Shown in pieces: positions 5,728 through 34,867 of a stretch of 41,267 nucleotides of DNA. Under the pieces are notes generated by a model. The model was not told where the DNA came from and did not search any database. It was given only the letters and a program-made list of their open reading frames with translations. The stretch is from Nemertoderma westbladi (taxonomy: Eukaryota > Animalia > Xenacoelomorpha). How positions within the stretch are numbered: the stretch's first letter is position 1; every line of letters starts with the position of its first letter. Both the position numbers and the translations under genes were made by a program. The stretch lies in the NCBI GenBank assembly GCA_032718475.1, contig JAUCBJ010007210.1, positions 1 through 41,267 of the forward strand, read 5' to 3'.

Positions 5728-5737
5728 GTAAGACACG
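5728..5737 (+). promoter_or_regulatory. Element A non-tRNA primer-binding site candidate (gtaagacacg)
   Basis: Directly follows the LTR, no TGG. Reverse complement of LTR segment catgtcttac (28039-28048) at 9 of 10 positions, 8 contiguous. Confidence 0.55.
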
Positions 5738-6792
5738 TTTTTTGTGTCTTTAACAGTAAGATACAATTTTTGTTTTGCTGTACTATATACAGTAAGACAC
5801 GATTTTTGTTTTGCTGTACTATGTACAGTAAGACACGAAATTTTGTGTGTTCACTAAGGCTGTTAGGTTAGTGTACAGTATTATTTACTGTACTGCGTAC
5901 AGTAAGACACGAGAATTTTGCTGTTGCTTGCAACAGTTAAGAGCATTTGTTTACTAATCGCAAATACAGTAATTCATTGGGCCGTTAGGGTAAATTGTAA
6001 ATTAGTAAGTTTTGAAAATTTTAGCTAAGTTTGTGAGAATTCGGTTTTGGTCAAAATTGTTTTATAATAAAATCTAGAGTTTTGTACTGGTATGTTAGAT
6101 AATCACTTAGTTGTTTTATACCATCTGGAGATATATGGCGAGACGGAGCTTCTGAGTTTGGGGTTTGTGTGGGCCTGCGGGTTCGGTTTGCAATCAGCGA
6201 AGAGACTGAAACATTGGACGCGGACGTGGAATCTCACAGGAAACAAGGTTGGTTGTTCTGTTGGTACCATTGTATTTGTGGAAGCAGTAAAAAATTACCG
6301 GTTGTTTAACTGCGAAACTGAACTCAATTTATTAGTTAGGATAGTTAGGTTTAGCCAGCCATGGTGTTTTGAATCGCTCAGTTGGAGAGAGAGAGAGTGT
6401 GGAGAGAGAAGGTGTAGCCACGCTCTAGTGGATATATATAATATTTAAAAATAAAATTACGTCGATTTTGAGCTATATATATAAAATTAGAAATATTTGG
6501 GTGACTAATTCATTTTTTTTGAATTTTTTGAATTGGATTCAGAAACTATTTTCGTGTCATACCGGTATTTAAATGCTATATAATAGCTATAGAGCAATAT
6601 TTTCGTTTAAATATTATACCGGTATTTACTATAACTATATACCATTAAATTCACAATATTATATTGCGAATTTATTTTGACATTTGACACCAAATAATTT
6701 ATTTGGTACATAATTTAATCGTATTTCGATTGAATTAATATATCTCGAATTTTGCAAGATCTTAGCCGGAAGGCAAATTATATACTTAGACT

Positions 6793-7318
6793 ATGAGTGT
6801 CTCAGAGAAGGAGGCACTAGAGGACAGTTATGAGATGGCAGCCGGACCGCCGACTGATAACATTATAGACATAACTGTTGATGACAATGCCCATTATGAC
6901 GACGCAGCGAGTGACGCTGACGTAAGTGAACAGGAGGAAGAGCAAGGTGAGATAATAGTATTAGGATCCCCTACCGCTACTATAAGGAAGGATTGCACAG
7001 CAGCCCAGCCAGAGGTGAGTGATAGGGAAGGAAGTGTAGCAGGAGCGAGAGCCTCCAGTCTCGAACTCGAGAGTTTCCAGACCTGTGGGTATGGTAAGTG
7101 CCGTGACCCCAGTGGCTATAAGGAGTACCCGTAGTTCCCGAAATAATCCCTCAAGTCCACCGAGTGTGAGTCAGGTAAGCGAGAGAGAGGTAGATATCGA
7201 GATAAAGAAGAAACTTTGCGCGCATGCCGGACATATAACCAGGACGACGGACAAGGTAAGGAAGATGCTAGCTGACTCTGGTAACATCGGAAGGGAAGGG
7301 TTAGTAGAACTTAGAAAG
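6793..7318 (+). pseudogene. Element A gag, N-terminal part (frameshifted, interrupted by element B)
   Basis: Removing B plus one GAAAG copy joins ...LVELRK to GYNSALFMQTEALAV..., in frame with ORF 14680-14931. Confidence 0.8.
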
Positions 7319-7878
7319 TGTTAGCTTATCCAATTCCGCTAACACCCCACAAAGTTATAAGCCGATAAGCAATATTGGGAGCCACGAGATTGGGCAATTA
7401 ACCAACTCGTGCCATCCCAATAAGAGTGGGAAGGAAGCACACAATAGGGGTCAGGGGCCAAACCCCTAACCAAGAGAGAACAGCAAGGGCGAAGGGAAGC
7501 ACTTCAGAGGGGGGCAAAGGGTGCCAACAGGGGTATTAGCCAATGGGGGGACAGCATCGACTAAGTACTGTAACGGCCAAACCCGTGCAATATATATTAC
7601 CTGTACGGTAATCATTATAGTCAGTTTACTCAGTCAGCTATCCCAGTACAGTAAGGCAGTACGGTGACTGTTAAGACCGTCGTCGCCACCGTCACCATAT
7701 TACCGGTATATTAGCTTTATCTACTGTGCTATCTGTATCACTCATCATTTATTATCTCAACGTTATCAGAGTTCGACAACGACACTAGAACAATTATTAC
7801 CTTTTCCATTCACACGGCGGGGCGGGGACGCGTACGAAACACACCGGATAAACCGGGATCCTCTCGGATCCCGTCACA
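7319..7878 (+). repeat. Element B 5' LTR
   Basis: tgttagc...cgtcaca, repeated at 14094-14653. Confidence 0.96.
7591..7626 (+). promoter_or_regulatory. Candidate LTR core promoter: TATA-like (7591) and Inr-like TCAGTT (7621)
   Basis: tatatatt followed 30 nt later by tcagtt, the canonical TATA-Inr spacing. Sequence inference only. Confidence 0.45.
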
Positions 7879-7887
7879 GTCTTAACA
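7879..7887 (+). promoter_or_regulatory. Element B non-tRNA primer-binding site candidate (gtcttaaca)
   Basis: Directly follows the LTR. Perfect reverse complement of LTR segment tgttaagac (7669-7677). Confidence 0.6.
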
Positions 7888-7973
7888 TCTGAGAATTGCC
7901 TGAACTGTAACTGCCCGTCACAGTCTTAACACTAGGCCTGCCGAGCTGTGACTGACGGCTACCAAAGACGAAG

Positions 7974-10900
7974 ATGAGTCGAGAGAGAGGAACGACACCG
8001 CCGCGGACCCCGGACGACGATCTAACGATCCGCGAGGCCACGGCGAGACGATACGGACCCACGACGCCGGTCGATGCTACGTCGACCACGTCGATAACGA
8101 GCAACCCGGCGAACCAAGATGTGGGGGGTCGTCTACAGCGAGAGAGCGAGTCGAGTAGAGGAGAGAGCGAGACGGGGGAGGAGAGAGACGACGAGTCGAC
8201 ACAGGGCGGCGGTCGATATGCCGATGTCGCCGGTCAGCCACAGACCGAGGGCGACGGACGGCCCACCGGAACGGCAACGGTGGAGCCGACGGTACGACGC
8301 CGAACCCGGAGGGAGAGAGGAGAGGTCGGCGACGAGGATGTCGGGGTTTCTGATCGACTTCGACGAGCCTACGCCGCGACCCGGGAACAACTGAAGGAAG
8401 CTAGAGGAGGGGCTGAGATAGACCAGGTGAAGTTGAGGAGACGACTAGGTGAGTCGAACAGATACTTTGATTACCTAGTGCGTTCTGGGCAGGGAGAACT
8501 GGCCGAGGAGAGAGCGAGAGGGGTTGCCTTCGAACTGTTTGGGCTATGGGAACGTAGGGGTATGGGGCCTGGTGTAGTGTACATAGGGCCATACTTAGTC
8601 GATGCCAGGGAAGTTAAGTTAGTGGGTTGGGCGGGACCGCACGAGGGCGAATCCGAGGTTAGCTCCGAGGATTCGGCCTCGTCGGTCAGCGAGGACCCCG
8701 GAAAGCGGGGGAAAGTTGGTAGGACGGAGGGGCGGCGGAAGTCCGTCGCAACCGATAAGTCTGCTACATCCTCCGCAAAAGAAAGAAGGGTGCAGGAGAT
8801 AAATCTGGCAGCGTATGAATTAAGAACTAGAGAGAAATTAGAGTGGATAATGGGGAGAAGGAAAGAGCAAGAGAGTGAACGCGAAGAGCGTGAGGCGAGA
8901 GAACAGAGCGTGCGGTACACGTACAGTAGCCGTATGGGCGAGGGGGGTAGTAGCAGTGCGTTAGGAAATATTGGTATTAATAGTACCGTAGTAAATAACC
9001 CTAATCCCTTTATTGCAGGAAATATTTTACCCGGTAGTAGTAATTTAAGTTTAAATTCAAATAATAATATTAATTCAAATATTCAGAATAATCAAAATAA
9101 TTCGAATAGCAATTTAAATTTTGAAAATAATAATAATTCTAACTTAAATAATTTAAATAATAATCCCGTTTCAAATTCTAATAATTTAATTGATTTAACA
9201 AATAATATTGGGAATGGTGCTATTAATGTGAACTTGCCAGACGTGTATAGCCCGGCAGACGGCGGCCTGGTAGGCCACGTAGTTAGTAGACAGGAAGTGG
9301 CGGGGTTGCGCCAACCCGACGGCGGCCTGGTAGGCCACGTAGTTGGTAGGCAGGAGGTAGCGGGGTTGAGCAAACCCGGGGTGGGCCTGGTGGGCCACGC
9401 AGTAGTAAGGAGAGAGGCGGGGGTGAATAGACCCAGCCGTAGTAGAGACAGTGTGTCGACTAGAGAGGGGTGTAGAGACGAAGTAAGATATATTGAAGTT
9501 AGAAGTGGCGGGTGGGGGGGGGCTACGGGCGCCCCACCACATGAGATTAGCGGCGAGAGAGGGGGGGCAGAGAATGCCCCACAAAGGGGGTGTAGAAGTG
9601 TAGTAAGAGGTAGTGAAGTTAGAAGTGGCGGGTGGGGGGGGGCTACGGGCACCCCACCGCGAGGGATTAGTAGCGAGAGAGGGGGGGCAGGGAGTGTCCC
9701 ACAGGCGTCGGCGGATAATGCGCGGGCCGAATTAGGTAAACCGCAACACCCGGCGATGGAGAGTAATAGGGGGATTGCGAGTATCCCCAGCGGCGTGCGA
9801 TCGAGCAGAGAGAGACAGGTTGACGTCGCGAGAGGGCGGGCGACGGAACGTCGAGCCCAGTTAGAAGAGAGAAGATTAGTAGAGTTTAATAGAGAGGTCG
9901 AAGATAGGAGAAGATTAGTAGATTATAATAGAGAGGTCGAAGATAGAAGAAGATTAGCAGAGTTTAACCGAGAGGTCGAAGAGAGAAGAAAGGAAGATAA
10001 TAGAAGAGTCGTTGCTAGGAGCAACCGGAGAGCGAGGACGGATAGCGAGCCGTCGATAGTAGAGCGGGAATTAGGGAGTCAGTGGAGTCGGACTTCGGGA
10101 GATTGCCGTCGCCCCGGAGAAACGCACCACACGCTAGGAGAGGGGTACAGGACGTACCGATACGAAGACGAGAGCAGGATAGGGGATCGAAGGGAAACTT
10201 CCCGACGTGATATAGCTGCCGATCGAGAGTACGGTAGTCGCGGGGAGATTCGAGATTCGCGAAGAATAAACTTCGATTCGGAAGGGCACATGCAGACTGC
10301 TGGACATACTGTAGGCCTTACTGCACATACTATTATAGGCCATGCTGGGAGAGATAGAGTAGGCGATAGGGTAGCGCGGACGACGGGATTAAATCCGGAA
10401 GTCGCGGAGTACATACCGGTAGGTGGGCGAGAGGTAGGTAGGCCTATATCGGTACAGCAGCATGACTATAATACACAGGGACATAACATATATCCAGGGG
10501 AGGGGAGAGTTATTGTAGATAGATGTATGGGCCCCAATATATTAACATCAACCCCAGTACCAAACATACCGGTGGGAGGGGGACAGGGTGACATTCCCCC
10601 ATCACGATATCAACAATATACCCCAATAGGAGCGAGAACATCGAACCCCTTGGACGAGAACAGATCGTGCGACACGGAAATATGGAGGGGGCCGTTACCC
10701 CCAATGATATACCCGACGCAACAAGCGAAGTCAACAGCAGATAGGACGAACGGACCGTACCCAGTAAGAGAAACTATACAACATCCATCGAACCCATTGG
10801 AAGCGCAGGCGATGGGAATGGCCACATTGATCGATGCGTTAAAAACTAGGATCGAGTTACCACCTGTGGAACCATTTAAATTCGATGGGAGTAGGCCGGA

Positions 10901-13142
10901 AGAATATCTACAGTTTCGGCGCATGTATAGTAACGAAATATTAAGTAAGAACTTGACGCAGGCGGAGTGCCTAAAGTATCTGCAAGTATATACAGGAGGC
11001 CCAGCATACGACATCGTGAGGCAATACCAAGGCATCGAGGGCGGCTTCACGACAGCATGGCGGGCGCTAGATAGGGAATACGGGCACCCGGCCAAGATCA
11101 TCCGGCAAACCCTGAGAGGCATAACATCGGGTGGCCTACAGGATAATCCCGTTAGCATTAAGACGTTTGCTAACAAAGTTGAAAAGGCGCTGATCGTGTT
11201 AAAGACGTTGGACGCACCATACGAACTCAACGCGTCTAACAACATCACCACGATAGCGCAGGCACTGCCGATCTGGTTACGAAGGAAGTGGAGGAAAATC
11301 GCTTTCTCCACACGGGAAGAGAAGGGTGTGGAACCGGGCCTAGAAGAGATGTCGAGCTTCTTGAACTATGAAGCCGAACTAATAACAGACCCAGTCTATA
11401 GCGAGGATAGTTTGGGGAAGGCACCTAAGACCGAATACAACTGGCCTGAACCCGAATATAATCCGACAGACCCATTCTCGGGAGTGGGACAATCACTACC
11501 ACATGCGGCCACACAGGGGACTGCTAGTCCACAGTTAGCTGGTAGCAGGGCCACACCGTGGCGGGGACAGAAAGAAAATAACACCATAAATAAACATAAT
11601 CCCAATGTACCCAGTAGGCCGAATACAGACAACCAAAACACTAAATCGGTACATATAAACCTAGACGCGATACGTGAGGGACTATACAGGGAACGCTATA
11701 AACCAGGATTCGAATGTCAATTACATCGGGACGGAACACATAAGACCAGGAGTTGTAAGCACTGGCAAGCGTTGCCCAAACAAGATCGTATAGCCTACAC
11801 AGACGCAAACGGACTATGTCATCGATGTGTGGTAGAAGGACACAGGTCCGGAGAGTGTAGAGAAACAGCAGTCAGAGAGTCCGAGACTGGAGGCCAGGCA
11901 ATGGCCACAAGCACGACAGAAGAGGAGAAGAAGAGAAAAGTACTACTCGGGGTAGTACCAGTAAAGATATCAGGAGAGGGCGGTCGATCAGTAACGACAT
12001 TAATGCTGGTCGACAGCGGAGCAGCCTTCACGCTGGTGGAGAACTGGGTGGCCGAAGAGATAGGGCTAAAGACAAGGCCGAATAGAATGGCGGTGACTAC
12101 CGTCTCGAGTAAAGATGAGGTCCTGGAGACGAGGGCGGGGCGGTGCAGGATAGCAGCGATTGCACCGGGATGCGACTATGGGGCGACGATCGACCCCATC
12201 CACGTCATCGAATCGATAAACATCAACGCCAGGCGACCAACCAACATTGAGGTCGAGCAGTATAGATTCCTGGACGGTATCGATTTCTCAATACCAAAGG
12301 TGGACGTTAGGAAGGTGTCCATTATAGTAGGGATGGACTGCCCGACGGCCCATGAGAGGATGAAGACGGTCTTCGGCGAAGACAGGCAGCGGGACCCGAC
12401 GGCGATCCTCACGCCGTTCGGATGGACGCTTAGCGGCCCAGTTAAAACCAACATCCCATGCAGTGTGACAGAGACATCTGGGTGCATGATACCAGGCACC
12501 GAAGACGCAGAGGAAGTAGAGGAGAAACAAGAGATAGTAGAGCCAGATAGGGAGGTGACAGTAAGAAAGTGGGCAGAGGAAAGTAGGTTTCCCAGCAAGC
12601 ATCGGTATGGAGATGGAGCGGAGCGGACGGCGAGGTGTCCGGAGGACAACACTCCAGGGGAGTGCCCGGAGGAGTGTCGGGAGGAGTGTCCGGAAGAGAC
12701 GCAGGTCCGGTTTGGAGGCATACCGACAAGGGGGAAGTCGAGAAGGAAGGCAGGACGGAAAGGGATAGGACTACTATTGTACCTACTGTTCTGCCTGTTC
12801 TTTCACTTTCTATTCATTCTGCCGGCGGGAGACAACAAGGAGGGAGGTGGCATTTTGATGCCAGGAGATGAGCTAGTTAAGAAGGCGGCGGAGAGACCCG
12901 ATTTCAGGGTGGCAGAAGAGGGAGAGCCAATTCCTGGTCAGTTGGAGTTGGCGGGGAGAGCGTGGCGAAGAGAGTGCGGCGAATTCTACAGGACCTACAA
13001 GATCAGCAGTGGGAGAGTGCCTGTTGGAAGAATCGCCCTAGTTAAGAGGTTTAGTCGTCCAATATTTTGGACTGAGGGGGGTGGGAATGAGGGCGAGACG
13101 CCCTTCCCACAAGAAAATAATTATTTAATTAAAAACAAATAA
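7974..13142 (+). CDS. BEL-type Gag-aspartic protease polyprotein, 1722 aa, with no RT/RNase H/integrase core and a hydrophobic segment near the C terminus
   Basis: Gag core ELPPVEPFKFDGSRPEEYLQF (DUF1759-like), knuckles CQLH....HKTRSC and CHRCVVEGHRSGEC, protease VPVKISG...MLVDSGA...TPFGWTLSGP. Uninterrupted ORF; no YxDD or DDE motifs seen. Confidence 0.9.
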   Translation: MSRERGTTPPRTPDDDLTIREATARRYGPTTPVDATSTTSITSNPANQDVGGRLQRESESSRGESETGEERDDESTQGGGRYADVAGQPQTEGDGRPTGTATVEPTVRRRTRRERGEVGDEDVGVSDRLRRAYAATREQLKEARGGAEIDQVKLRRRLGESNRYFDYLVRSGQGELAEERARGVAFELFGLWERRGMGPGVVYIGPYLVDAREVKLVGWAGPHEGESEVSSEDSASSVSEDPGKRGKVGRTEGRRKSVATDKSATSSAKERRVQEINLAAYELRTREKLEWIMGRRKEQESEREEREAREQSVRYTYSSRMGEGGSSSALGNIGINSTVVNNPNPFIAGNILPGSSNLSLNSNNNINSNIQNNQNNSNSNLNFENNNNSNLNNLNNNPVSNSNNLIDLTNNIGNGAINVNLPDVYSPADGGLVGHVVSRQEVAGLRQPDGGLVGHVVGRQEVAGLSKPGVGLVGHAVVRREAGVNRPSRSRDSVSTREGCRDEVRYIEVRSGGWGGATGAPPHEISGERGGAENAPQRGCRSVVRGSEVRSGGWGGATGTPPRGISSERGGAGSVPQASADNARAELGKPQHPAMESNRGIASIPSGVRSSRERQVDVARGRATERRAQLEERRLVEFNREVEDRRRLVDYNREVEDRRRLAEFNREVEERRKEDNRRVVARSNRRARTDSEPSIVERELGSQWSRTSGDCRRPGETHHTLGEGYRTYRYEDESRIGDRRETSRRDIAADREYGSRGEIRDSRRINFDSEGHMQTAGHTVGLTAHTIIGHAGRDRVGDRVARTTGLNPEVAEYIPVGGREVGRPISVQQHDYNTQGHNIYPGEGRVIVDRCMGPNILTSTPVPNIPVGGGQGDIPPSRYQQYTPIGARTSNPLDENRSCDTEIWRGPLPPMIYPTQQAKSTADRTNGPYPVRETIQHPSNPLEAQAMGMATLIDALKTRIELPPVEPFKFDGSRPEEYLQFRRMYSNEILSKNLTQAECLKYLQVYTGGPAYDIVRQYQGIEGGFTTAWRALDREYGHPAKIIRQTLRGITSGGLQDNPVSIKTFANKVEKALIVLKTLDAPYELNASNNITTIAQALPIWLRRKWRKIAFSTREEKGVEPGLEEMSSFLNYEAELITDPVYSEDSLGKAPKTEYNWPEPEYNPTDPFSGVGQSLPHAATQGTASPQLAGSRATPWRGQKENNTINKHNPNVPSRPNTDNQNTKSVHINLDAIREGLYRERYKPGFECQLHRDGTHKTRSCKHWQALPKQDRIAYTDANGLCHRCVVEGHRSGECRETAVRESETGGQAMATSTTEEEKKRKVLLGVVPVKISGEGGRSVTTLMLVDSGAAFTLVENWVAEEIGLKTRPNRMAVTTVSSKDEVLETRAGRCRIAAIAPGCDYGATIDPIHVIESININARRPTNIEVEQYRFLDGIDFSIPKVDVRKVSIIVGMDCPTAHERMKTVFGEDRQRDPTAILTPFGWTLSGPVKTNIPCSVTETSGCMIPGTEDAEEVEEKQEIVEPDREVTVRKWAEESRFPSKHRYGDGAERTARCPEDNTPGECPEECREECPEETQVRFGGIPTRGKSRRKAGRKGIGLLLYLLFCLFFHFLFILPAGDNKEGGGILMPGDELVKKAAERPDFRVAEEGEPIPGQLELAGRAWRRECGEFYRTYKISSGRVPVGRIALVKRFSRPIFWTEGGGNEGETPFPQENNYLIKNK

Positions 13143-13214
13143 TTAAAATAATTAAATAATAATTAGTAGAGGATAGTAAGAAGTAGCAGTTAGAAGTTAG
13201 GTAGTAGTAGAGAA

Positions 13215-13497
13215 GTTAGAAGGCGGCGGGGCAAGGGAGTGTGGCATATTGTCATGCCACGAGTAGTAGTAGTGGGGTTGTGGGCACCGTAAGCGCCACT
13301 TAGAAGGAGAGTAGGTTAGAAGGCGGCGGGGTAAGGGAGTGTGGCATATTGTCATGCCACGAGTAGTAGTAGGGGGGTCGTGGGCACCGGAAGCGCCACG
13401 TAGAAAGTAGCAGTGGTAGAGAGGTTGTGGGCACCGGAAGCGCCACGTAGAAAGTAGTAGTAGTGGAGTGGTTGTGGGCACCGTTAGCGCCACGTAG
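13215..13497 (+). repeat. Tandem hairpin-forming repeats in element B 3' UTR
   Basis: 100-bp unit twice (gtggcat-attgtc-atgccac at 13241 and 13341) and gtgggcaccg(taa/gaa/tta)gcgccac four times (13280, 13380, 13427, 13474). Confidence 0.85.
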
Positions 13498-14093: not shown

Positions 14094-14653
14094 TGTTAGC
14101 TTATCCAATTCCGCTAACACCCCACAAAGTTATAAGCCGATAAGCAATATTGGGAGCCACGAGATTGGGCAATTAACCAACTCGTGCCATCCCAATAAGA
14201 GTGGGAAGGAAGCACACAATAGGGGTCAGGGGCCAAACCCCTAACCAAGAGAGAACAGCAAGGGCGAAGGGAAGCACTTCAGAGGGGGGCAAAGGGTGCC
14301 AACAGGGGTATTAGCCAATGGGGGGACAGCATCGACTAAGTACTGTAACGGCCAAACCCGTGCAATATATATTACCTGTACGGTAATCATTATAGTCAGT
14401 TTACTCAGTCAGCTATCCCAGTACAGTAAGGCAGTACGGTGACTGTTAAGACCGTCGTCGCCACCGTCACCATATTACCGGTATATTAGCTTTATCTACT
14501 GTGCTATCTGTATCACTCATCATTTATTATCTCAACGTTATCAGAGTTCGACAACGACACTAGAACAATTATTACCTTTTCCATTCACACGGCGGGGCGG
14601 GGACGCGTACGAAACACACCGGATAAACCGGGATCCTCTCGGATCCCGTCACA
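14094..14653 (+). repeat. Element B 3' LTR
   Basis: Copy of 7319-7878, followed by TSD GAAAG. Confidence 0.96.
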
Positions 14654-14658
14654 GAAAG

Positions 14659-17600
14659 GGATATAACTCAGCGTTATTTATGCAGACGGAGGCGCTTGCA
14701 GTCCTAGCGAAGAGAGCAGTGGAGTCTCAGTTGAGCGACGTAGCGACGAAGGTTTACGACAGGGCTTTGGCGGCCTTGTTAGAGCACTGCGCGTTATCGG
14801 AGCGATTCCAACGAGTTAGGACAGAAAACTGGTTGCTATGGGCGTCGCAAGCGCAGGCGACTCAGGTAAGTGATGCGGAGTTGAGGAACTTAGTGGAGCA
14901 GGAAGAGACCCAAGACAACGAAGAGCGATGATACCAGAGGGAAGTCACCAGCTGGCTGACGCAGAGCGGAGTAGTAGTACCGGGTCAGGTGTTACCGACG
15001 ACGGAGAACATCCAACAGAGGACGTTAACTCCACCCGACGACGCATCCAGAAACAGTGGGGGTTCTCAGGTTAGTCACGCGCAAGGGAAGGTTATATGCA
15101 CTAGATCCCTTGTTTCTCACAACTCGGCAGAGGAGAGAAGACGCCGACTAGACGAACAACAGGCAGAGGTCTTGCGAGCATCAGAGGCACGGAAGGAAGC
15201 CGAAAGAGAAAGGGAGCGCAAACGGAAGTTGGACGCGGAGCTGCGAGAGTTGGAGGATATAAGTAAGCGCGAACGAGCTGAACGCATGCGGAAAGAACGC
15301 GAACTTCAAGCCAAACGCGAGCGCAAGGAACTCGAATGCGAACAGAAAGTACGCGAGCTTCAACTCGAATGCGAACAAAAAGAACGCGAGCTTCAACTCG
15401 AACGCGAGCGGAGAGAACGTGAACTTCAAGCTGAACGCGAGCGCAAGGAACTCGAACGCGAACAGAAGAACGCGAGCTTCAACTCGAATGCGAGCGCAAG
15501 GAATGCGAACTCGAGATCGAGAAAAGAAGACACGCGTTGTATGAAGAAAAGGCACGACTGGAAGAAGAGAGCGCAGCGAGACTCGCGAGGGAAGAAGAAC
15601 AACGCAAACTGGCGCAATTGGAAAGTGCGAGACTAAACTTAGAGAGCGAAGAACGAACTAGGAAGGCAAATCAAATTGCCGAGAAGGTATGCGAATGATC
15701 GAAGAATGTGGGGCGAGTGTAGGTACCGAGTTGTGAGAACTGTTCGCACAGGAGAAGGCCGAACAGGAGGCGAGAACTCCGGTTATCCGTGAGTCGACGG
15801 CGACCAGAATTCCTATACCAGGTCCAGCTATTACGAGTACTCGGATCGCTAAACCGTTCTCTACATATTGCACGCTGGTTTGCATTAGTGCTTCACCCAT
15901 CGCGCAGGATTCGCGCCATCAGACGGCGCACTGCGACGCAACTATTATCGAGACGACGAGGAGTTTAGAGAAGAAACTCCTAGAGGCCGAGTATTGGGCG
16001 AACCGAAACCACAAGTTTGGAATACGCGGATGGATCGCCGACCCAGTTCGACGGAGAACTACCGGGTTAAACCGGAAGAGGGATCATATGAGAGACAGCG
16101 GATTACTCAAATAGAGCCGACAATTCAGCAGAACCCTAGCCAGGAATTTATTACAAGGGAGGAGTTAGGTGCTAGTTTAGCGCAAGCTATATCGCCGCAC
16201 ATCCAACCTATAACGGACATGCTTAGTAACCTACAGTTAAAGGAAGCAGCCCAGGTAAGAAGTAATTCTAATCCTAGCAGGCCTGAACTAGATAGAGTCC
16301 AACCTAGTCAACGAGTACGCATATCGGAGGCAACAATACCACAAGGACCATAGGTAAGAACGCCCATCCCTACGATCCATAATCCCGACTTCGAACACTC
16401 GGCAGAAAGATTTATACAAGAGGCCTGGGTCAGGGCCTCAGCGCGTAAACCGACACAAGCGCTGAGGACCGACACAGACTCGAGCGATGAAGAGGAAGAA
16501 TTGAGACGGCAGAAGTTCCAAAACTGGAAGGAAAGAAGGACCGACGCGGAGCAGGTAAGTATGAATCCCCGGGAAAGGTCCAGACTTAATAACCCTGTAG
16601 AACTAAATAATTTGTTAACCCAGAACGACGCAACCCTTAGAGACATAGGTAAGTTTGCTGCTAGGCAAGGACTGCCGACGCAACAACCCCAGAAGTTTAT
16701 GGGCAACCATCAACATTGGAGGACATTTAAAACCTATGTCGACGAACAGCTGACCAACAGCACCTTTACTCCTAACGAGAAGTTCAACTATCTACTGCAG
16801 ATGCTCCATCGAGAACCTAGAGCCATTGCTGATAACTTCGCCGGCAATGAAAGAGCGTTTGAACTAGCTATGAAGACACTTAGCGACATCTACGGGAATA
16901 AAACCAAGATGGCACCGTCGATAGTGGAAGACTTGGGTAAGGGCGGAAGGGTTATAACGCCGTTGGAGCTGTTGAACTTAGTGAACGCTATTTCAAACGC
17001 ATTGGACATCTTAAGGATGGTAAATCTGCCTCATCATGGCGATCACGCCGAAGTTTTAAAGAGCATAATAAGACGTTTAAACATGCGTTACCGACAGAAA
17101 TGGCGCAAACTAGAAAATAAGTTAGAGGGTCAAGGTAAGGTGTTGACACTTCAACACATCCATGACATGATAGCCATGGATGCGGAAGCAGAGATGAAAT
17201 CAAACTTCTCAGAGGAGAATATGGGAGAGTCTAAACCTGTTACCGGTAAGTCAATGGTAAGTTTTGACAATGATAGAACCACTGTGACTTTTAACTCAGT
17301 AGACAGATACAATTCTAGTACCCCTGCCTTTAGACCAGACTCGCGAGTATGGTCAGGTGAGAGGTCAGATAGACCTAAGGTGAAACAACAGTAGTTGCCG
17401 GATGGATTTGTAGGTTGCCAATTCTGCCTACTAAAGGAGGTAAGATCAGGCAACCATAAGTTAGACAGTTGCAGACGGTTTAAAGAATTAACTTCGGAAC
17501 AGAGAAGAGTTCAAGTGCGGATGTTGGTCACCTGTTGGGCATGTCTTGCGCCAGGTCATGTACGGCGCCAGTGCCCGAACAGCAAGGACGGATGCATGGA

Positions 17601-19265
17601 GTGCGGCCGACTACATCACAAGTTGCTACATGCGGATTTCCATACTCAAACGGACCGTTATCTACAGAGAAATCCTCAAAGGAAGGGAAGCAGAGATCCC
17701 ATAACGATAAGAAGAAATACGTACACCAGCATCCAAGACGATGGATATCAACCAGGTTCGTCGGACGAGGATGGCGAGGCGAGCGCGAGAGAGGTGACCT
17801 GCCAAGGGTTCACCACGGATAGTTCATCGACCAGCTCGCGGACGTATTTATCATCGACCACGTCGGAAATATTCAGCGTGATTCCGGTGAAACTTACTGG
17901 AGATAAGGGGTCGAAGAGAATATATGTGATTTTGGACACTGCATCCACATTATCGTATATAGACGAGGAAGTAGCAAGAGCCGTTTCCAGCTACCGGGAC
18001 GCCGAGGAAATCCAAATAGAGTTGAAATCCATGCAGGGGGTAGGTGACCTCAAGGGACACAAGATTTCGGTAGAACTAGACTCCCTACTCCCGAGAGACC
18101 AGCACACTCACCAAGAATGGAGAGCTTTGCCATTGGATGGATTTAAGTGTCTAGCTATGAAAATGGTTCGGCAGGCAGTTAGGTAAGGTGCCACCGATGA
18201 GTCCCATAGCACAGGAGTATTTTGACAAGCTCAGAATACCGAGACACCAGGTGGGTTATAGTAATGTATCTATGTTAATTGGAGCAGAACAGCTGATCGC
18301 GCACCAAATATGGGAAACGAGACCAGCTGAGCCGTTTGTAAATGGGCCACACGCCCATAGGAATATATCAGGTTGGTATACACGAGTACCCATGTCCTAT
18401 GAGTTTTCAGGTGGCGACAAGCCAAAGGATAGACACGACGAATTACAGCCTATAACACAACAACCGTTAGTAAAACCACCAGACATAGACGAGTTTAGGA
18501 GAACCTGTATTGACCACTATAGCGACTTTAGCGAGTCAGACGAGGAGTTGATTCCCGATAATGTTAGATTGTCGGAACCACTCTACAACGACCGAACAGA
18601 TAGTGAACCCAAGGACCACTGTTATCAGACCCGTGGGTCTGGTTCAGCGGCCCATGCCACTTATTTGAGTAACGTTTTGACTTAAACCAATATAGTGGAG
18701 GGTCAGGTGGCTAAATATCGAGACCTCGACATTTTCAAATTCAGCAAAGAGGAGTTGCAGCAGGAATTGATACGCCAGGACCTCGAGACAGGAGCTAAAA
18801 CTGTTGAATGGCTGGATAGGGACGCGATGGAACCCGGTGGATACGACTTAACCATGTCCACTGATGAGAAACGGTCGCAAGAGATGATGGAAGACACCAT
18901 ACGTCTGCCACCGACGGGACATTTTGAAGTTGGAATGTTGTGGCGTTGACAACCCCCTAAGTTGGAGAACAATTACAACTTGGCCTTGAAAAGATTGAAC
19001 GGAGTAAGGGCTCGGTTGCTAAAGAATCAAGATGTTAGGGAGAAGTATTGCGCCCAGATCAACAACTATTTCGCCAAGGGATTTGCTGGGAAGGTAGAGA
19101 ACCCCGACTTAGTGACGGACCAGACTTATTACCTCCCACACCACTATGTGACTCACCCTAACAAACAAGACAAGGTCCGAGTAGTCAATGACCGCGCAGC
19201 AGTCTATAGAGGTATGTCCCTGAACTCAGAGTTGATGGATGGTCCCAACCTAAATAACTACTTAA
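14659..19265 (+). pseudogene. Element A gag-pol: coiled coil, Gag core, zinc knuckles, protease, RT N terminus (many stops and frameshifts)
   Basis: PQKFMGNHQHWRTF; CQFC...HKLDSC, CWACLAPGHVRRQC, CMECGRLHHKLLH; VILDTAS; YYLPHHYV...KVRVVND...SLNSELMDGPNL (BEL RT signature). Confidence 0.92.
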
Positions 19266-19754
19266 CCCTATCCATACCGGGGTATTTTAGACGCTCAAAC
19301 TACCGGGGGGGGGGGGGGGGGGGGACTTTTGGGGACGTAAAGTTTGGAAGCATATAACTTTGTGTGGTGTGATGATATTACTTTAAAGTAAAAAGTTTTA
19401 GATACAAAATTTATTCCTCTATCCAAATATGCCACACACTAATGCTCAAATATAATATTTAAATACTATAATTATGTTTAAATTGATTTTAAATTGATAT
19501 TAAATTGATTGAATTTTAAATTTCCCTCCTACAATAGTTCAGCAATAATATGACAGTTTCAGAGACAGGTCAGTTTACGAGTCATTTTCATGGTCATGAA
19601 TAATAATATGAAAATAAATTTTTGTTTTAAGATAAAGAATAATAAATTTTAGGAAAAGTAACGGAATTTCACTTGCAATAAATGTGGTTTGGCTTTGAAC
19701 CAAGCAATCAAATAAAGTGCGTCTCCAAAAGTCCCCCCCCCGGTATGGATAGGG
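19266..19754. mobile_element. piggyBac-type MITE, 489 bp
   Basis: TTAA duplication (19262-19265, 19755-19758); 17-bp TIR ccctatccataccgggg / ccccggtatggataggg. Removal restores the RT frame NNYL-IGILLRFR. Confidence 0.93.
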
Positions 19755-19758
19755 TTAA

Positions 19759-22700
19759 TAGGGATACTGTTACGCTTTAGACTGCGGCGATTTGCGTTTA
19801 CTTGCGACATCGAGGTGATGTTTCACCAGGTAAGAGCCTGTAAGGCGGACCAGGATAGTCTCAGATTTCTCTGGTATGAGAATGAAGACCTATCCGGCCC
19901 AGTGGTTACATACCAGATGTATGTCAGGATATTCGGCGCCCGCGATAGTCCCAATGGCACGCTGTTCGTTTTAAAGAAAACGGCGACAGCACAAATTGAA
20001 AAGTATCCAGTAGATGTTATCGAGTCCATCCTGAGAAACTTCTACATGGACGACGGATTGGTGTCCAAGGACACAGCGGAACAAGCCATAGTAGTGGCTC
20101 ACGGCCTACAGGAGTGCTTGGCTACAGGGGGTTTCCCACTGACCAAGTTCACCACCAACTCGGAGGCCTTATTAGAGTCATTCCCGGTGAAAGATCACGG
20201 GAGTGGAGACATTGAATTGGGTGTAGAACCCATCCCCATGGTGCGAGTACTGGGACTCGCTTGGAATCCAAACACGGATAAGTTCCAGGTGAGAGTTAGA
20301 TTTGAACCCAGTAGTCCAGATAAAATTTTGACTAAGAGAATCTGCTTATCGACAATGAGTAGACTATTTGACCCGATGATCTTTATCAGCCCGGTAATAT
20401 TACAGGCACGAGTATGTATGAAGAAAATTTGGCTGTCTGACCTAGAGTGGGACGAGCCAATATCCCCTATACATGCAAAGCAGTGGAGAGAGTGGGAAGC
20501 CGAGTTACATCTATTGAAAAATATAGATGTACCCCATTCCTACTTTCCGAATCAGCTGGTATTTCCAGCTGATCTTGAACTGCATCTGTTTAGTGACGCA
20601 AGTGACACCGGCTTTGGTATGGTAGCCTACATTCGCCGAGAGGTAAGTCAGGACAAGTTTGAGATGGCCTTTGTGACTTCTAGATCAAAGACAATGCCGG
20701 TCAAATACATGACTGTCCCTCGTGCAGAGTTGCAGGCGGCAGTAGTCTCAGTCGAGGTAAGTATGCAGATAATAGAGGAATTAGACACGACATACGACGG
20801 CCAGACCAAGACGGCCGAGAGGCCAACAGACGCGCTCAGATAGTCGACCTTTCGATGAAGGAACAATGGAGACATTGTCCGGGAGTGTTAAACCCGGCCG
20901 ACATAACTTCGAGAGGTGCTATGCCGGCGGAATTCTGTCAGAAGAAATCCCAGGAGTTTTGGTTACATGGACCTGATTTTCTAACGAGGACACAGGAGTA
21001 TTGGCTAGAGCGACTGAAGATTGTGACCAATCCGATGCCGATAGATGCAGAAGTCAAAGTGGAGAAAGTCTCCAAGTCTAAGTCGAAAGCCAAACTTGAG
21101 TCATTGGAGCGGCCTGAAGAGTCATTGGAGCGCCCTGAAGAGTCATTGGAGCGACCTGAAGAGTCATTGGAGCGGCCTGAAGAGTCATTGGAGTGGCCTG
21201 GAGACCTGTTAAACCGAGAGACTTATGTGACTACAAGGTCCAGAAAGGTAAGTTATGACATAAAACCACCCTTACAGACTACACAAGGGTCACAATTAGT
21301 AAGTGACGGACAGAAAATGACCGACAAGATGGAGCCTTCGGTTTCCAAACCTGCGGGTTTGGATTCGAAACTTCCATTAGTTAGTGGGCAACCGTCGCTG
21401 GCATTAGAGCCATGCAGTATTTATGACAAATTACTAAATTCGTCCACCTCTTGGCTGACAATTTGTAAAAGAACTGCGTGGTTAAGCCAATACGTTTCAT
21501 ACCTTTGTTTAAAACATTCGAAACATTTAGGAGAACAAACGAGCACTAATAGCGAGCGAATTCAGAAATTGAAACAACCTCTGACAGAGGATGAGATTGA
21601 TCAAGCAGAATTAAGGCATTTGAGACATTATCAAATGTGTGGCTTCCCGAAAGAATTTTATCTGTTATTGGCTCAACGACCAGTTCTCTATAAACCCCTC
21701 AAAAAATGGAGTCCATTAATCCATAAGGGTTTGATTTGTCATAGATCGAGAATCCAGACTGTCGACATAAACTCACAGTTTAGGTTCCCAGTGATAATAC
21801 CTAGTCACCCAATAGAATTGCAAAGAGCGATTCTATGGGATATACATAAGAGGCTGCATCATGCGGGAAGGTTACACTATTTGTCGGCAGCGAGACAGCG
21901 ATTCATTCTATTGCAGCCAAGCAGGGCAGTAGGTACTATGTACGACGCCTGCCTGGTTTGCAAGAGAGTGAACGCCAGAGTATTGGAACAGGAGATGGCT
22001 GAAATCCCGGAAGCGAGAGTGCAGGCATATGACCCACCCTTTACAAATATGGGGGTGGACTGCTTTGGTCCAATTGAGGCAAAGAGTGGACGGCTGACCC
22101 ATAGGAGATGGGGCCTACTACTGATATGTATGGCCAGCAGAGCCATACATATAGAGCGTGTGGCAGACATGTCAACCAAATCTCTGCTCCTGGCCTTAAA
22201 GAGATTTATGGCCAGGAGAGGACTAGTAAAGGCGTTCTACTCCGACAAGGGTACAAACTTTGTCGGGGGGAATAGCGAGTTAAACGCGGCTCATAGGGCG
22301 GCGCAGAATAGAGAAATCTCTGCAGCACTTTTGCCGCAAAGAGTGGAGTGGAAATTTAACACTCCAGAAAGTCCCTGGAGAGGAGGAAGTAGGGAGCGTT
22401 TGGTTCGCTCCATAAAATAGGCCATTGCTAAAACATTGCCTGTAAACAAACAACTTACAGACGACGAGCTGGTAACAGCTTTCATCGAAATCGAGCATAC
22501 CTTAAACTCGAGGCCGATAGCTATGTTGCCTGACGGTGTCGCATTAACACCAAATCATTTGCTAATGCAGAGTCCAGCGTTTCTTGTGCCGGCATCAGAA
22601 CCCATTAGTGCCGACCTATACAGTCGAAAGAGCTCGAAAATAACACAGTTTGTGGCGTACACAGCCTCCAAGGAGGAGACTACGTATTAATAACCGAACT

Positions 22701-26964: not shown

Positions 26965-28996
26965 TGTTACGATATATGGCGCTGTGTTCTATTATCAGCC
27001 CATTATACAGTATAGAATATTTAGATAAGCCATAATGACATGCAGCCATAACTAGATAGGGAAAATAAAATACCCATATTCGTAGATCTTATTCATTTTG
27101 TATAATATGTAGCCCTACGTACGTAATTTTGTAATAAAACATAAATAAATAACATTACGGTAGCAAGTTTCCTATAAAACCTTAATGCAAGCTTGCTGTT
27201 ATTGGTATTAATTGAAATTAATCGTGTATTTGCATCAATTTCCATTATATTTGTTTTCAAATTGGCTTATATTAGATTGTGCATAATGTACTTTAAATAT
27301 CGCGAAATTAAATTACGCAATCATTACCATATATGGTAATAATTTGTGATTCTGGGAGCCTTGAGGTTCACAATCCGGCTTCCCTATTTGCCCAGCTGTT
27401 CCAGGTTGGTCTAGTGGTGGTGTGGATTGATGAGCCAATGGGACGATTATTGCATCATCCCTGTTGGATCACCTATAAATTGGCTGTGTTTCCGGCATGT
27501 GTTACTGCATTTTTCCCGTTCTTATTCATCTTTGGACCTTTTTCCCTGTATTTTGTTTTCGCTTGCAATAATTTGTAATTATTTGTAAATTCTGATTTCT
27601 GCTTTAAATTCTTTGCTGTATTTTCTCAATTAATAATGGTTACTGCAAATTACAACCTCGAACTATGATTTCTACCTTTGATTAATAGTTTTCTATGTGA
27701 TTTAAGATGCGATAACCCCACGGGATTTCCTTAGACTGCCAGACTGTTTGTGAATGCATGCGCCGCTACGGTAGCTATTCGTTCTAATGGAGGGCTAAGG
27801 TACCGGTAGGTGCGGCGGGCGCACCGGTGGGTAGCGACGAAGGGAGTGCAGAGGATTCAAATGCGGGCAACGCTGGCGGGGGGTCACCGTTGCGGTCGGG
27901 AGGTAGTCAGTGGGGCCTGAAGACCTGTCGCCGGTACAGTAATAGGGTGCTGATGATCCAGATTTTCTTTCTATTTGTAGTGTTAGGGGGCAGGACTTAG
28001 GTTAGTTAGGAAGCCTATATGTAGCCGGGAGAGGCCTTCATGTCTTACACTGCTAATTGCTAGCTGCAAATTGTAAATTGTTAATTGCATACTATACTGG
28101 TATACTGATACGCTACTGTGTGGTTTTAGTACACCAGCTGATTGGTAGTTAACGCAGTACCGTACTACTAGCTAATTGCTACGCTAATTTGTGTGTTGCT
28201 AATGTGTGCCTGATTCTTGATTGTGAATGCTTAGATAGGCGCCTTTCCCTTGATTGATTTCTATTTCTTAGTTTACGTTTAATAATTGCTGATTAGGTCA
28301 AAATAATACAGTATTTAGGCTGTTGCTAGTGTAACCCAGTGCGTAATAAATTAGAATTGCGTATTCTGGAACATTTAGTAATTAGTACGCTGTTTCGTAA
28401 TTATGACTGTAGTTAATTAGCGTTAAAATAAGAAATTGTACGCAGCATAGTGGAGAGTAGTTTAAGTAATTATTTAGAATACTGTAGACTATTCACGCTA
28501 GGCGGTTATTTGAAAATAGCGGGAAACAAGCTGATAGCAGCATCCAGTATACAGTAGTAAGTTGCTGGCCTAAAGCCAGCCGAAGGCAAGTTTAGACCCA
28601 AATACAGTACCACGATTGGTCACGGTAGGTCATTCAGTCATTGAGTTATTTTAAACATTCTCACATTCATAAATTATGTTAGTGAACCCCAGTATTTGCG
28701 ATTAGGCGATAAGTGAACACGCTGAGTGTAACCTCTCCCACACTCGTTTTAAGTAGCTTAGGGAGCCGATTCGGGTTTATTGTTTTGGTTATTCCCGCGT
28801 GGCTCATAGATTCGAACAGTTAGCTCTCTGTCGAGCGATCGGTAGAGAAAGGAACAAGCGATTTGTAGGAGCCGTATAAAATTAGTAAAAAATGTTAGCG
28901 GACGGCCAGGTTAGCGCCATCCAGTGGTGAGAAGCAATTTTGTGTTTAGCAGCAGTGTAGCAGTAATAACGCGCTCCTGATCGCCCCTGTTTAACA
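26965..28996 (+). repeat. Element A 3' LTR (about 2030 bp)
   Basis: 3' end fixed by identity with 5358-5727. 5' end inferred from TGTTA (inverse of terminal TAACA) after a stem-loop and a short purine-rich tract. Confidence 0.75.
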
Positions 28997-29473
28997 GCAT
29001 GTCTATGATGTAGATATTTAAATATTACCATATCGTGTGAATAATAGTTTATTAATTAAATGGGCCGCATCATTCTTTTAGTTTACATATTACTTATTAC
29101 TAATTATTTCAATAGCAATAATTATGTAAAAATATGTCGTAAAACAACAATATAGAACCAATACGATAATTGGTGTATATCAAGCCAATTTCCATAAATC
29201 GTAATCCCGTTCCCTTACCAGAATTCCTCTCCCCCTGTTATCTCACGTAGGCCTACACACATCCCCTAGCACACGCATCCCCTAGCACAGGCATCTCTTG
29301 GTGCTTCGGTGTAACAATTTATAATTTATTATTTGGAATCGATCAACAGATATTTTATTATTCTTGTATCGATTGAATAGATATTCATTGGGGGGGGGGG
29401 GGGGGGGGGGGGGATCTGAGCAGAGCAGTTAAAATTAATAATAACAATTTAAAATCACTTTTATTAACAGTAA

Positions 29474-31079: not shown

Positions 31080-31513
31080 TGGCCATGGACTTTTTGGTGC
31101 ATCTGTCACATAGGTTCTTACGTTTTAATTCACCTACTGTATTATTGAATGGCCAGTGGGGACAAGAGAGCTCTAAGTTGTAATAAAACCTGATAATTAT
31201 ACCCAAAAGGACTGGACAGTATTCATTTATTAAACACTGTTGATTTATTTAGGTTATTTTACAAATTTTACATAAAAAATGCAGGTAATGTTATTATTTC
31301 AATTTATCTTTAGCTAGAAATACATCTGGATATCCTGGCAAAACCGAAAAAAAGGTTCACCCCAAAAGAAGAGAAAAGCCACGACATTAGAGTTGTCACT
31401 GCAGGGATCCATAGAAAACAAGAAATTCCAAGTATGGAACAGCAAAATGAGGTAGGCATAACCATTGAATAATAAATATTAAGTTTAATTAATTAATTAG
31501 CTTAATTAAGCTG

Positions 31514-32660: not shown

Positions 32661-33656
32661 TTACTACTACTACTAGGTCGAGCGAACTCGGACATTGGAA
32701 ATGAGATCCTTCTATGCTTCCTGATTCTCCATAGTTGTTGCAATTTTGATTCTCCCAAGTTCAGTATCCCTTTCAAGTTGATCTATATATGTTATGGCTG
32801 GTCATCCAACACTACACTTTCCATGAGTTGGTTGCCAGAAAAGTAGATCTGGTATGACCTCGTCTTTACTTCGCCAGCAGTGCCCACTGAATCTTAATCT
32901 GCGTTCACGAAGGATGGTTGATACAGCTGGTATTGTACCATAAAGCTCTGCGATTGTCATGTGTTGTCTCCAGCTGATGTTTAGGGATGCCCTTAGTAGT
33001 TTTGTGTAGCAACGATCAATTCGTTGTTCAAGTGATTTAGTCAGTGTCCAGGTCTCACCCCCGTATAAAAATACATTTTCCACTGTTGCTCAAAAGAACT
33101 TAGTCTTCAGGTGCCTGGAGAGATCTGATATCCAGATGGTATCCATTTTTGATAGATCTACCCAAGCATTTGCTTTCTTATCTTCTATGTCCTTTTTGCT
33201 ACTCTCTATCCATGATCCAAGGTACTGGAAGTCGTCGACCTTCCTTAGTTGATTATTATCAATGGTTGTCATGTTTCCATCAACACTAAAAGTCATGAAT
33301 TTGGTCTTGTTAGCATTTATATGCAATCCAACCTCCTTAGCAGCCCTCTCCACTTTGTTTAGTAGAAGCTGTGCATCTGGTAGCGTATTAGAGAGCATGG
33401 TGATGTCATCCGCAAAGTCGGTGTCTGTGACTGTAGTTACTGTATATCTACTACTTCTGCGTTCTTGAAGTGTGATTCCCAGATCTTCACCTTTTGTGGC
33501 CGTCCTCATTGCATAATCCAGTACAATTACAAATAGTAATGGTGCTAATGTGTCACCTTGCAGTAAACCAGCCAGGATTGAGAAAAACTTACAGTTTCAC
33601 CATATGGTGAGTGTATCTGTGCTTCTGTGTCACAATATAACAATGAACTGAAACAA
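32661..33656 (-). mobile_element. 5'-truncated RTE-clade non-LTR retrotransposon fragment
   Basis: LQGDTLAPLLF, DTDFADDI, FQYLGSWI, LYGGETWTLTK, RERRLRFSGHCWR; 3' tail (TAG)n at 32661-32675 on the minus strand. Confidence 0.88.
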
Positions 33657-33691
33657 TACCCTGAAAACATACCTATTATCATGGCTGACTT

Positions 33692-34853
33692 TGTAAAAGC
33701 TTTTGCGTAATTAACCGGTTATTCTCCCGTAAAGTACTCTGTAGTTGGTTTACCAGGCATAAAAAGGCCGTGTCCTTACTGTACTGGTGTTTTAGAGGAC
33801 AGAAAAGTCATTTCTTCTGTATTTGTACTTTAGAGGACATAATCCGCAATCTCGTGACGCAATAAGCTAGATCCTCTTGAAAACAGTGTCGCTACCATGA
33901 CGATGGCTAACAGCTGATATTGCCACGTCGACATTTCTTTGTTTCTTTGTTCTCTCGTTGTTCGGTTGACCAATCAGAGCGTTTTTTGTCTCTGTGTTGG
34001 AGGTGGATACAGAAACTCAGCAGTTCAGTGTTATGTTTTTGCCCAGAGCCTAAGAACACCGGCTTTTGGCACCTCCGTGTTTCAGTCTTTAGTCTTACAT
34101 TAGTAGGCTTAATTATAGAACGTATATCTGTTATCTAACCATACCAATGCAAATCGAGTTAACATACCATATCTATCCATAAATTACTAATATTACTGCT
34201 TTTACTGTCGGTTATTCATTATATTTGTTGATGAAATATTATATCGGAATACTGATCAATAGTCAGACACCCCACCTTCTTGATATACTAAAGGTTAGAG
34301 AGACCGGTTACAGATAAACGATTGCGACCTATGTTAAGTGGTTTGAAGTGAATCTAATGCTATTTCATAGGCCCGACATAAATTGTATGTTGCTCTCTTT
34401 ATACGTGACTAAATTTAGTGAAGGTCGGCAGATTAGTGTGCAGTATTGTGCAGCATTGTGTATGATTGTAACTGATAACAAAGCATCTCCTAAAGAATGC
34501 GCCATATACGTGAATCTATAGCCTTTTCGTTGTGTCTAGTTTAAGTCATAACTCTGTTTACATATTTAGAGCGCCACGTCCTAAAGGAACTGTTAATATT
34601 TCCCGAAAGTGAATAATATTTGTCAGAGATTATATATTACGATCAGTCGAATAATACGGTAGGCTTACACCATCAATCATTAAGCTTCCGAATTCAGTCT
34701 CCCGGGTATATCCAGCGGGTGAATGATTGCGCATAGACTGGCTTCGGCTAATGTAGTGTATCAAATACTCGTCATAGGCTAAAGACTATATATCATCTAA
34801 AAGACATCCTAATTTGGCAGGTTAAACTGTCAAAGGTCTTAAAAGCGCAAACA
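33692..34853 (+). repeat. Element C 5' LTR (about 1160 bp)
   Basis: Starts tgtaaaagc where the flanking duplication breaks. Ends ...gcgcaaACA, the same point where the paralog at 1-857 ends. Confidence 0.85.
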
Positions 34854-34867
34854 ATAACAGATATACG
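34854..34867 (+). promoter_or_regulatory. Element C non-tRNA primer-binding site candidate (ataacagatatacg)
   Basis: Directly follows the LTR. Perfect 14-nt reverse complement of LTR segment cgtatatctgttat (34121-34134). Confidence 0.72.

What the first reader, a model, noticed from the sequence alone, without database searches (positions are those of the whole stretch)
5728..34867. Three different BEL/Pao elements lack a tRNA PBS and instead pair with their own LTR: candidate self-priming lineage
Seen: after each 5' LTR there is no TGG. C: 34854-34867 ataacagatatacg is the exact reverse complement of its LTR 34121-34134 (14 nt, extendable by agaa/ttct with one bulge). B: 7879-7887 gtcttaaca matches LTR 7669-7677 (9 nt). 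A: 5728-5737 gtaagacacg matches LTR 28039-28048 (9 of 10; the mismatch is CG>CA, consistent with CpG decay). The three sequences differ from each other, each matches its own LTR, and in all three the 3' end of the LTR segment pairs with the first base after the LTR-terminal CA, the register a minus-strand primer needs. Rough chance with equal base frequencies: 1162/4^14, 560/4^9 and 2032/4^8. Established: Tf1/sushi-type Gypsy elements self-prime with a fragment from the 5' end of their own transcript, while BEL/Pao elements normally use tRNA. Inference: independent self-priming in BEL/Pao, which I do not know to be described. Inr-like motifs lie about 45-55 nt upstream of each primer end (7621, 28002, 34082), so the primer could be longer than Tf1's; this last point is speculative.
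Basis: partly seen in the sequence, partly recalled or inferred. Interest (0 to 1): 0.92.

Follow-up and report, generated by a model that had tools for sequence, protein, structure and literature searches.

The report
Self-priming, splice-built BEL/Pao retrotransposon primers
Three unrelated jumping genes of the BEL/Pao type lack the usual tRNA landing site and instead carry letters that pair with their own terminal repeat, so they likely start copying themselves with a piece of their own RNA; in most relatives examined that piece is interrupted by a predicted intron and would be completed only by splicing.

Summary
Observation confirmed. A, B and C are divergent BEL/Pao elements (23-26% Gag identity), none has TGG after the LTR, and each post-LTR sequence pairs with its own LTR: 8, 9 and 14 nt. 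A's mismatch is copy-specific: 72-92% of laid contig depth completes a 10-nt match. Of 28 families with LTR and primer site in the contig, 21 have a 10-15 nt match formed across a GT-AG intron in the LTR, 4 a contiguous 9-12 nt match, 2 are unresolved and 1 is tRNA-type. Own-LTR matches beat foreign ones (score 323; best of 100,000 permutations 243), GT..AG ranks first of 256 junction types, sister families show compensatory changes, and two pairs show exact intron loss. Best reading (0.83): Tf1-like self-priming with a primer from inside R, splice-built in most relatives and intron-less in this window. Not shown: transcription start, cleavage, priming. Folding support is mixed and host RNAs were not searchable. 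ICTV lists the family as tRNA-primed; nine paper searches found no self-priming BEL/Pao. This scan noted both features before in other genomes.

The parts
5358..5727 (+). Element A, remnant of 5' LTR (cut by a LINE)
   Evidence: 97.3% identical to 28627-28996, ends TTTAACA
5728..5737 (+). Element A primer-binding site, no TGG; LTR-end + site repeated at 5756, 5792, 5828, 5902
   Evidence: (family D12)
28039..28048 (+). Element A candidate self-primer segment (seen in the 3' LTR only)
   Evidence: 8 exact, 9 of 10; most other copies pair at 28040
26965..28996 (+). Element A 3' LTR, 2032 bp; start inferred
16354..22420 (+). Element A gag-pol, broken by stops and frameshifts
   Evidence: DUF1759, Peptidase_A17, Integrase_H2C2; YMDD and DAS motifs
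7319..7878 (+). Element B 5' LTR, 560 bp, inserted in A with 5-bp target duplication (7314-7318, 14654-14658)
   Evidence: 100% identical to 14094-14653
7669..7677 (+). Element B candidate self-primer segment
   Evidence: 9-nt exact complement of 7879-7887; 7 of 5000 shuffles
7879..7887 (+). Element B primer-binding site; second copy at 7923-7931
7956..13142 (+). Element B single ORF, Gag + protease, no RT or integrase (non-autonomous)
   Evidence: DUF1759 and aspartyl protease only
14094..14653 (+). Element B 3' LTR, after a G-rich purine tract
33692..34853 (+). Element C 5' LTR, 1162 bp; start inferred
   Evidence: 82% to the LTR at 191-858; contigs of one run break off at 33692
34121..34134 (+). 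Element C candidate self-primer segment
   Evidence: 14-nt exact complement; 0 of 5000 shuffles
34854..34867 (+). Element C primer-binding site; second copy at 34923-34933 (11 nt)
38637..41267 (+). Element C Gag-protease ORF, runs off the window
   Evidence: DUF1759, aspartyl protease; triple Cys-His box
1..857 (+). Sister LTR of C (D) whose primer-equivalent segment near 90-107 differs; its own primer site is not in the window

Best explanation
These BEL/Pao elements have no tRNA site, their post-LTR letters pair with a segment of their own LTR, and they likely prime minus-strand DNA with that segment of their own RNA, predicted to be freed by a cut at its 3' end as in Tf1. Shown: the complementarity, its specificity for the own LTR, its covariation, its register 0-6 nt from the LTR end, and in 21 of 28 related families its location across a GT-AG junction that has been lost exactly in two family pairs. 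Inferred: transcription starts upstream in the LTR; the 5' intron is spliced, joining 4-8 nt of exon 1 to 4-8 nt of exon 2; the junction folds onto the site; a nuclease (RNase H by analogy) cuts after the conserved -AC or -AU end; cDNA copies U5 and the rest of R and jumps to the 3' R. The intron would be inherited only from an unspliced 3' copy; copying a spliced 3' copy would give the contiguous, intron-less form seen in A, B, C and four related families.
For: Window matches and shuffles; A completed in other copies. 30-family matrix: own mean 10.8 nt, foreign 6.3; at least 11 nt in 21 of 30 own against 7 of 870 foreign; sum 323 against a permutation maximum of 243. LTR ends fixed without looking at the match (11 elements): 10 show 8-14 nt, and 7 exceed all 30 foreign LTRs. 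Control anchors in coding DNA: 28 of 31 families at fraction under 0.05. GT..AG gives 10 nt or more in 24 of 30 families, next dinucleotide pair 13, mean 3.1. Compensatory changes: L043/L048 position 4, L022/L026 position 11, L019/L022 position 7, L007/L034 position 11, L050/L077 position 5. Exact intron loss L014 to L017 and L019 to L012. Poly(A) hexamer 3-93 nt downstream of the segment in 25 of 33 rows, upstream in 1, placing the segment ahead of the RNA 3' end.
Against: No RNA or cDNA evidence. Folding is mixed: helix in the minimum-energy fold for 7 of 14 spliced models (3 of 14 unspliced), probability about 0.69 for C but 0.1 for B. A and B matches are short (8-10 and 9 nt), with 950 and 720 nt between partners in A and C. 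Inr-like hexamers lie 14-156 nt upstream or are absent, so the primer is not shown to be the 5' end as in Tf1, and A, B, C have no canonical poly(A) hexamer within 200 nt downstream. L075 and L076 unresolved, L041 tRNA-type. 20 of the 31 LTR ends were chosen by inspection. Relatives are assembled contigs of repeats and can be chimeric. A sits on a long branch outside the starred clade of relatives.
Confidence: 0.83

Rival explanations
1. The primer has the element's own sequence but comes in trans: a short spliced LTR transcript or a small RNA cut from it (or from the 3' R of a second RNA), not a fold-back of the genomic 5' end.
For: Fits all covariation and splicing data equally; long distances in A and C and weak folding in B and 7 of 14 models; would ease the puzzle that the 3' intron copy must stay unspliced.
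Against: Helix forms in cis at probability 0.78-0.99 in 6 of 14 spliced models; Tf1 precedent is cis (PMC7175516, passages). Counted inside the 0.83 as a variant as far as the primer is self-derived.
Confidence: 0.2
2. The helix is a structural or regulatory long-range pairing (packaging, dimerisation, control of splicing or polyadenylation) and priming uses something else.
For: Covariation proves pairing, not priming; several sites begin like a splice donor (A: ACA then GTAAG), sequence shown.
Against: Pairing always starts 0-6 nt from the LTR end and never extends into it, with a conserved -AC/-AU 3' end; no other primer site is present; the one TGG family (L041) has no self-match (5 nt).
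Confidence: 0.1
3. A host RNA without a CCA end (tRNA fragment, snRNA, SL RNA) primes, and the LTR match is secondary.
For: Half-tRNA priming exists in copia lineages (PMC6317226, passages); many sites share a GTAAA/GTCAA/GTTCG start; host RNAs could not be searched (no genome).
Against: A host primer would reset the site each cycle, yet the 10-15 nt sites differ from family to family and each change is mirrored in the own LTR.
Confidence: 0.04
4. The primer is the element's own polyadenylated 3' end.
For: Some spacers are T-rich (L007, L031, L078) and could pair with a tail; proposed in an earlier scan note for another group.
Against: Poly(A) hexamers lie downstream of the segment in 25 of 33 rows and upstream in 1; spacers are absent in A, B, C and A-rich in L043 and L074. 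No R would remain for strand transfer.
Confidence: 0.02
5. Chance or selection of LTR ends by eye.
For: A alone 146 of 5000 shuffles; 20 of 31 ends set by inspection.
Against: C 0 of 5000; independent-end subset and control anchors; permutation and decoy-junction tests.
Confidence: 0.01

Closest known systems
Tf1/Tf2 and the Tf1/sushi group (Ty3/gypsy chromoviruses), self-primed reverse transcription
   Same: No tRNA site; about 11 nt of the element's own LTR RNA complementary to the site next to the LTR (PMC7175516 passages).
   Different: Different superfamily. [quoted passage not shown] Cleavage not shown here.
Belpaoviridae / BEL-Pao (Semotivirus)
   Same: Gag DUF1759, triple Cys-His box (C), LLDSG protease, YMDD, DAS, PR-RT-RH-IN order, TG..CA LTRs, 5-bp duplication.
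   Different: ICTV profile (PMC8742986, whole text) gives an 18-nt site for host tRNA-Arg or -Gly and LTRs of 0.2-1.2 kb; here no tRNA site, and A's LTR is about 2.0 kb.
TAR (Houba, Osr-1) copia and Tcn1 lineages with predicted self-priming
   Same: Self-priming inferred from sequence alone, criterion at least 10 bp starting 0-5 bp after the LTR (PMC6317226 passages); C meets it, A meets it in most other copies, B (9 nt) does not.
   Different: Plant copia/gypsy; no intron-split primer in the passages seen.
Cer7 of C. elegans (recalled: a BEL/Pao element proposed to encode its own tRNA-like primer)
   Same: Element-encoded primer within BEL/Pao.
   Different: Recalled only; search found no paper. 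There the primer would be a tRNA-like internal sequence, not an LTR segment.

Membership tests
BEL/Pao (Belpaoviridae) | Pao-type Gag (DUF1759) and Pol (Peptidase_A17 region) | tested here: met
   DUF1759 in A, B, C; Peptidase_A17 E 2e-36 in A; 103 homologues, nearly all with PF05380
BEL/Pao (Belpaoviridae) | Triple Cys-His box | tested here: inconclusive
   Found in C; degenerate in B; not found by the pattern in A's broken frames
BEL/Pao (Belpaoviridae) | PR-RT-RH-IN order, Y(V/M)DD, DAS | tested here: met
   A only; B lacks RT, C runs off the window
BEL/Pao (Belpaoviridae) | 18-nt site for a host tRNA 3' end (ICTV description) | tested here: not met
   No TGG in A, B, C or in 27 of 28 related families. 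Family membership rests on protein phylogeny; this listed trait fails.
Named BEL/Pao clade (Suzu, Sinbad/Sailor) | Grouping with reference elements in an RT/RH tree | not testable with these tools
   No reference sequences; sequence supplements of PMC8556966 unreadable. Relatives group with coral, mollusc, nemertean and fish proteins, apart from insect and nematode ones. C's third finger lacks the Suzu form CX4CX6HHX3C given in PMC554778.
Tf1/sushi group | Ty3/gypsy chromovirus Pol | tested here: not met
   Pao domains
Tf1-type self-priming (works like) | Site next to the LTR complementary to own LTR | tested here: met
Tf1-type self-priming (works like) | Complementarity kept by compensatory change | tested here: met
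   five sister comparisons in relatives; none possible inside the window
Tf1-type self-priming (works like) | Primer is the first 11 nt of the transcript | tested here: inconclusive
   Inr-like hexamers 14-156 nt upstream or absent; a 4-8 nt first exon is unlikely (inference)
Tf1-type self-priming (works like) | RNase H cut at the primer 3' end; RNA attached to cDNA | not testable with these tools
   needs bench data

The most novel reading that the evidence does not exclude
A large lineage of aquatic-animal BEL/Pao elements primes reverse transcription with an exon-exon junction made by the host spliceosome inside the LTR, so splicing licenses replication; the intron survives only through the unspliced 3' LTR copy and is lost again and again, the three window elements being intron-less descendants or an intron-less sister branch.
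Probability: 0.6. Interest if true: 0.92.

Novelty: new variant of a known kind. Interest (0 to 1): 0.8.

Why it matters
The family is listed as tRNA-primed and its replication as poorly understood (PMC8742986). Self-priming here would be a third superfamily to use it, beside gypsy (shown) and copia (predicted), and a primer assembled by splicing would tie retrotransposon replication to the spliceosome, giving hosts and elements a control point. It also explains why tRNA-based annotation misses these elements and gives sharp, cheap predictions: one splice junction, one RNA 3' end and one RNA-DNA joint per family.

Tried and rejected
No genome is held, so host tRNA/snRNA 3' ends could not be searched; no tRNA or Rfam hit in the window. 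IMG/VR scan: 35 pattern hits, no relative. No RNA holder listed; the one guessed-RNA run gave no joint with GT..AG ends over C; neither is evidence. One search shows only the 40 best of 235 variant rows, so it says nothing on conservation of C's pair. The maximum-likelihood tree did not finish; FastTree was used. Gag tree for A, B, C: 10 rows, unresolved. Splice-split primers in the window: best matches for A, B, C are contiguous. Rows left out: of 80 loci in 58 families, 28 families were scored; 7 had only part of the pair in the contig (L003, L005, L013, L016, L033 group, L040, L056: what is present fits); 23 lacked a resolvable 5' LTR end or were not resolved. L012, L017 and L048 were dropped from or not added to the matrix as same-family rows; one search had five off-by-one ends, corrected. 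L077 reaches 14 nt only with the looser donor rule, 9 nt with the strict one. Hepadnavirus-like protein priming on UUAC was considered (recalled) and rejected: its product would have the wrong polarity for the site.
Full report
Anatomy. The window holds three BEL/Pao elements. A has a 5' LTR cut to 5358-5727 by a LINE, a broken gag-pol and a 3' LTR at 26965-28996. B (7319-14653) is inserted in A with a 5-bp duplication, has identical 560-bp LTRs and one Gag-protease frame. C starts at about 33692, its LTR ends at 34853 and its Gag frame runs off the window. Their Gag regions are 23-26% identical, so they are separate families; whether they form one lineage is unresolved.

Observation. None has TGG in the 25 nt after the LTR. 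The bases after the LTR pair with the own LTR for 8 (9 of 10), 9 and 14 nt, starting at the first base. Shuffles give 146, 7 and 0 of 5000. A is weak alone, but at its mismatch 72-92% of contig depth in three runs (two samples, one possibly the window's source) carries the pairing base, so the family match is 10 nt. No genome is held.

Relatives. A's RT/RNase H frame found 103 proteins, the best at up to 40% identity. An alignment of 32 sequences fetched the best 80 of 564 confirmed stretches from metagenome contigs, in 58 families. Where 5' and 3' LTR copies diverge, the LTR end is followed by GT.., TT.. or AA.., not TGG. In L014, L031 and L050 the complement was in two pieces, one ending at a GT donor and one starting after a pyrimidine-rich AG. 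Scoring contiguous or GT-AG-split matches at offsets 0-6, 28 families could be tested: 21 split (10-15 nt; L077 only with a looser donor rule), 4 contiguous (9-12 nt), 2 unresolved, 1 with TGG and no self-match. Seven more families hold part of the pair and 23 could not be resolved.

Controls. In the 30 x 30 matrix (27 related families plus A, B, C) own LTRs give 10.8 nt on average and foreign LTRs 6.3; at least 11 nt occurs in 21 of 30 own and 7 of 870 foreign cells; the diagonal sum is 323 against 243 at most in 100,000 permutations. Without splitting the own mean falls to 8.1. Of 256 donor/acceptor dinucleotide pairs GT..AG ranks first (24 of 30 families at 10 nt or more; next 13; mean 3.1). 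Because 20 of 31 ends were chosen by eye, I retested 11 elements whose ends are fixed by LTR comparison: 10 match at 8-14 nt, 7 beat all 30 foreign LTRs, A, B and L050 are equalled or beaten by 1-2, and L041 has none. Against CA-preceded anchors in coding DNA, 28 of 31 families fall under 0.05; A, L075 and L041 do not. Sister families change site and primer together at positions 4, 5, 7 and 11. L017 and the 3' LTR of L012 equal their relatives minus exactly the intron, which is what copying a spliced RNA would give; these are assembled repeat contigs and may be chimeric.

Mechanism. Shown: pairing, specificity, covariation, register, junction position, exact intron loss, and a poly(A) hexamer downstream of the segment in 25 of 33 rows. 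Inferred: the segment lies in R, is completed by splicing where an intron is present, anneals to the site, is cut after its -AC/-AU end and primes. Since the 5' segment is consumed as primer, the next generation's copy comes from the 3' R; an unspliced 3' copy keeps the intron and a spliced one yields the contiguous type found in A, B, C. Against or open: the helix is in the minimum-energy fold in 7 of 14 spliced models and 3 of 14 unspliced, 0.69 for C and 0.1 for B; Inr-like hexamers give no consistent start; cis versus trans priming is undecided; A lies on a long branch outside the starred clade of relatives (FastTree), so the link between the window's contiguous type and the intron type rests on about 40% RT identity and shared features.

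Comparison. Tf1 uses its first 11 bases, cut by RNase H (PMC7175516, passages). Self-priming is predicted for Tcn1 and TAR copia (PMC6317226, passages). The ICTV profile gives Belpaoviridae an 18-nt tRNA site (PMC8742986, whole text). Word searches inside four BEL/Pao surveys found no mention of PBS, tRNA or self-priming (PMC3118150, PMC554778, PMC6238403, PMC8556966); passages of PMC3601003, PMC8220671 and PMC6934838 add nothing on BEL/Pao priming. Nine library searches listed no paper on self-priming or splice-built primers in BEL/Pao; most listed papers were seen as listings only. Subscription journals, Repbase notes and the sequence supplements of PMC8556966 were not visible and may bear on both novelty and clade name.

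Earlier scan notes. After forming this reading I found seven notes from other genomes on self-priming BEL/Pao, two of them on splice-junction primers, and none for this genome. They are unchecked and not counted as support; one suggested the poly(A)-end rival, which disfavours for these families.

Verdict. Real feature; self-priming 0.83; new variant of a known kind; interest 0.8.

Noticed in passing
window 5728-5911, 7879-7931, 34854-34933: All three elements repeat the LTR end plus primer site in tandem (5, 2 and 2 copies); later copies of A pair as well or better with the LTR segment. Unexplained.
   Followed up: partly
window 7956-13142: B is young (identical LTRs) yet encodes only Gag and protease in a 1728-aa frame with a hydrophobic stretch near its end; it needs RT in trans.
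   Followed up: partly
window 24124-25359: 411-aa frame downstream of A's pol with no Pfam hit; possible extra or env-like gene.
   Followed up: no
window 34854-38637: C has about 3.8 kb between LTR and Gag frame, with a 290-bp duplication and two unannotated frames (37109-37924, 38116-38934).
   Followed up: no
window 1-857: Sister LTR of C with a changed primer-equivalent segment: a ready covariation test.
   Followed up: partly
window 795-5357 and 33090-33596: LINE with endonuclease and RT on the minus strand cutting A's 5' LTR, and a second LINE fragment.
   Followed up: no
window 29370-31080: 39-bp tandem array.
   Followed up: no
L041:678-870: Relative near the base of the clade with a 164-bp LTR and TGG after three Ts; resembles the tRNA-Tyr-type BEL site (recalled).
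   Followed up: partly
window 5725-5733; L019, L022, L026, L050, L077 LTR ends: LTR end plus site reads like a splice donor; U1 binding there might mask the 5' poly(A) signal (speculation).
   Followed up: no
L007, L046, L078 and others: Spacers of 2-6 nt between LTR end and primer site imply variable trimming of the cDNA end before integration.
   Followed up: no
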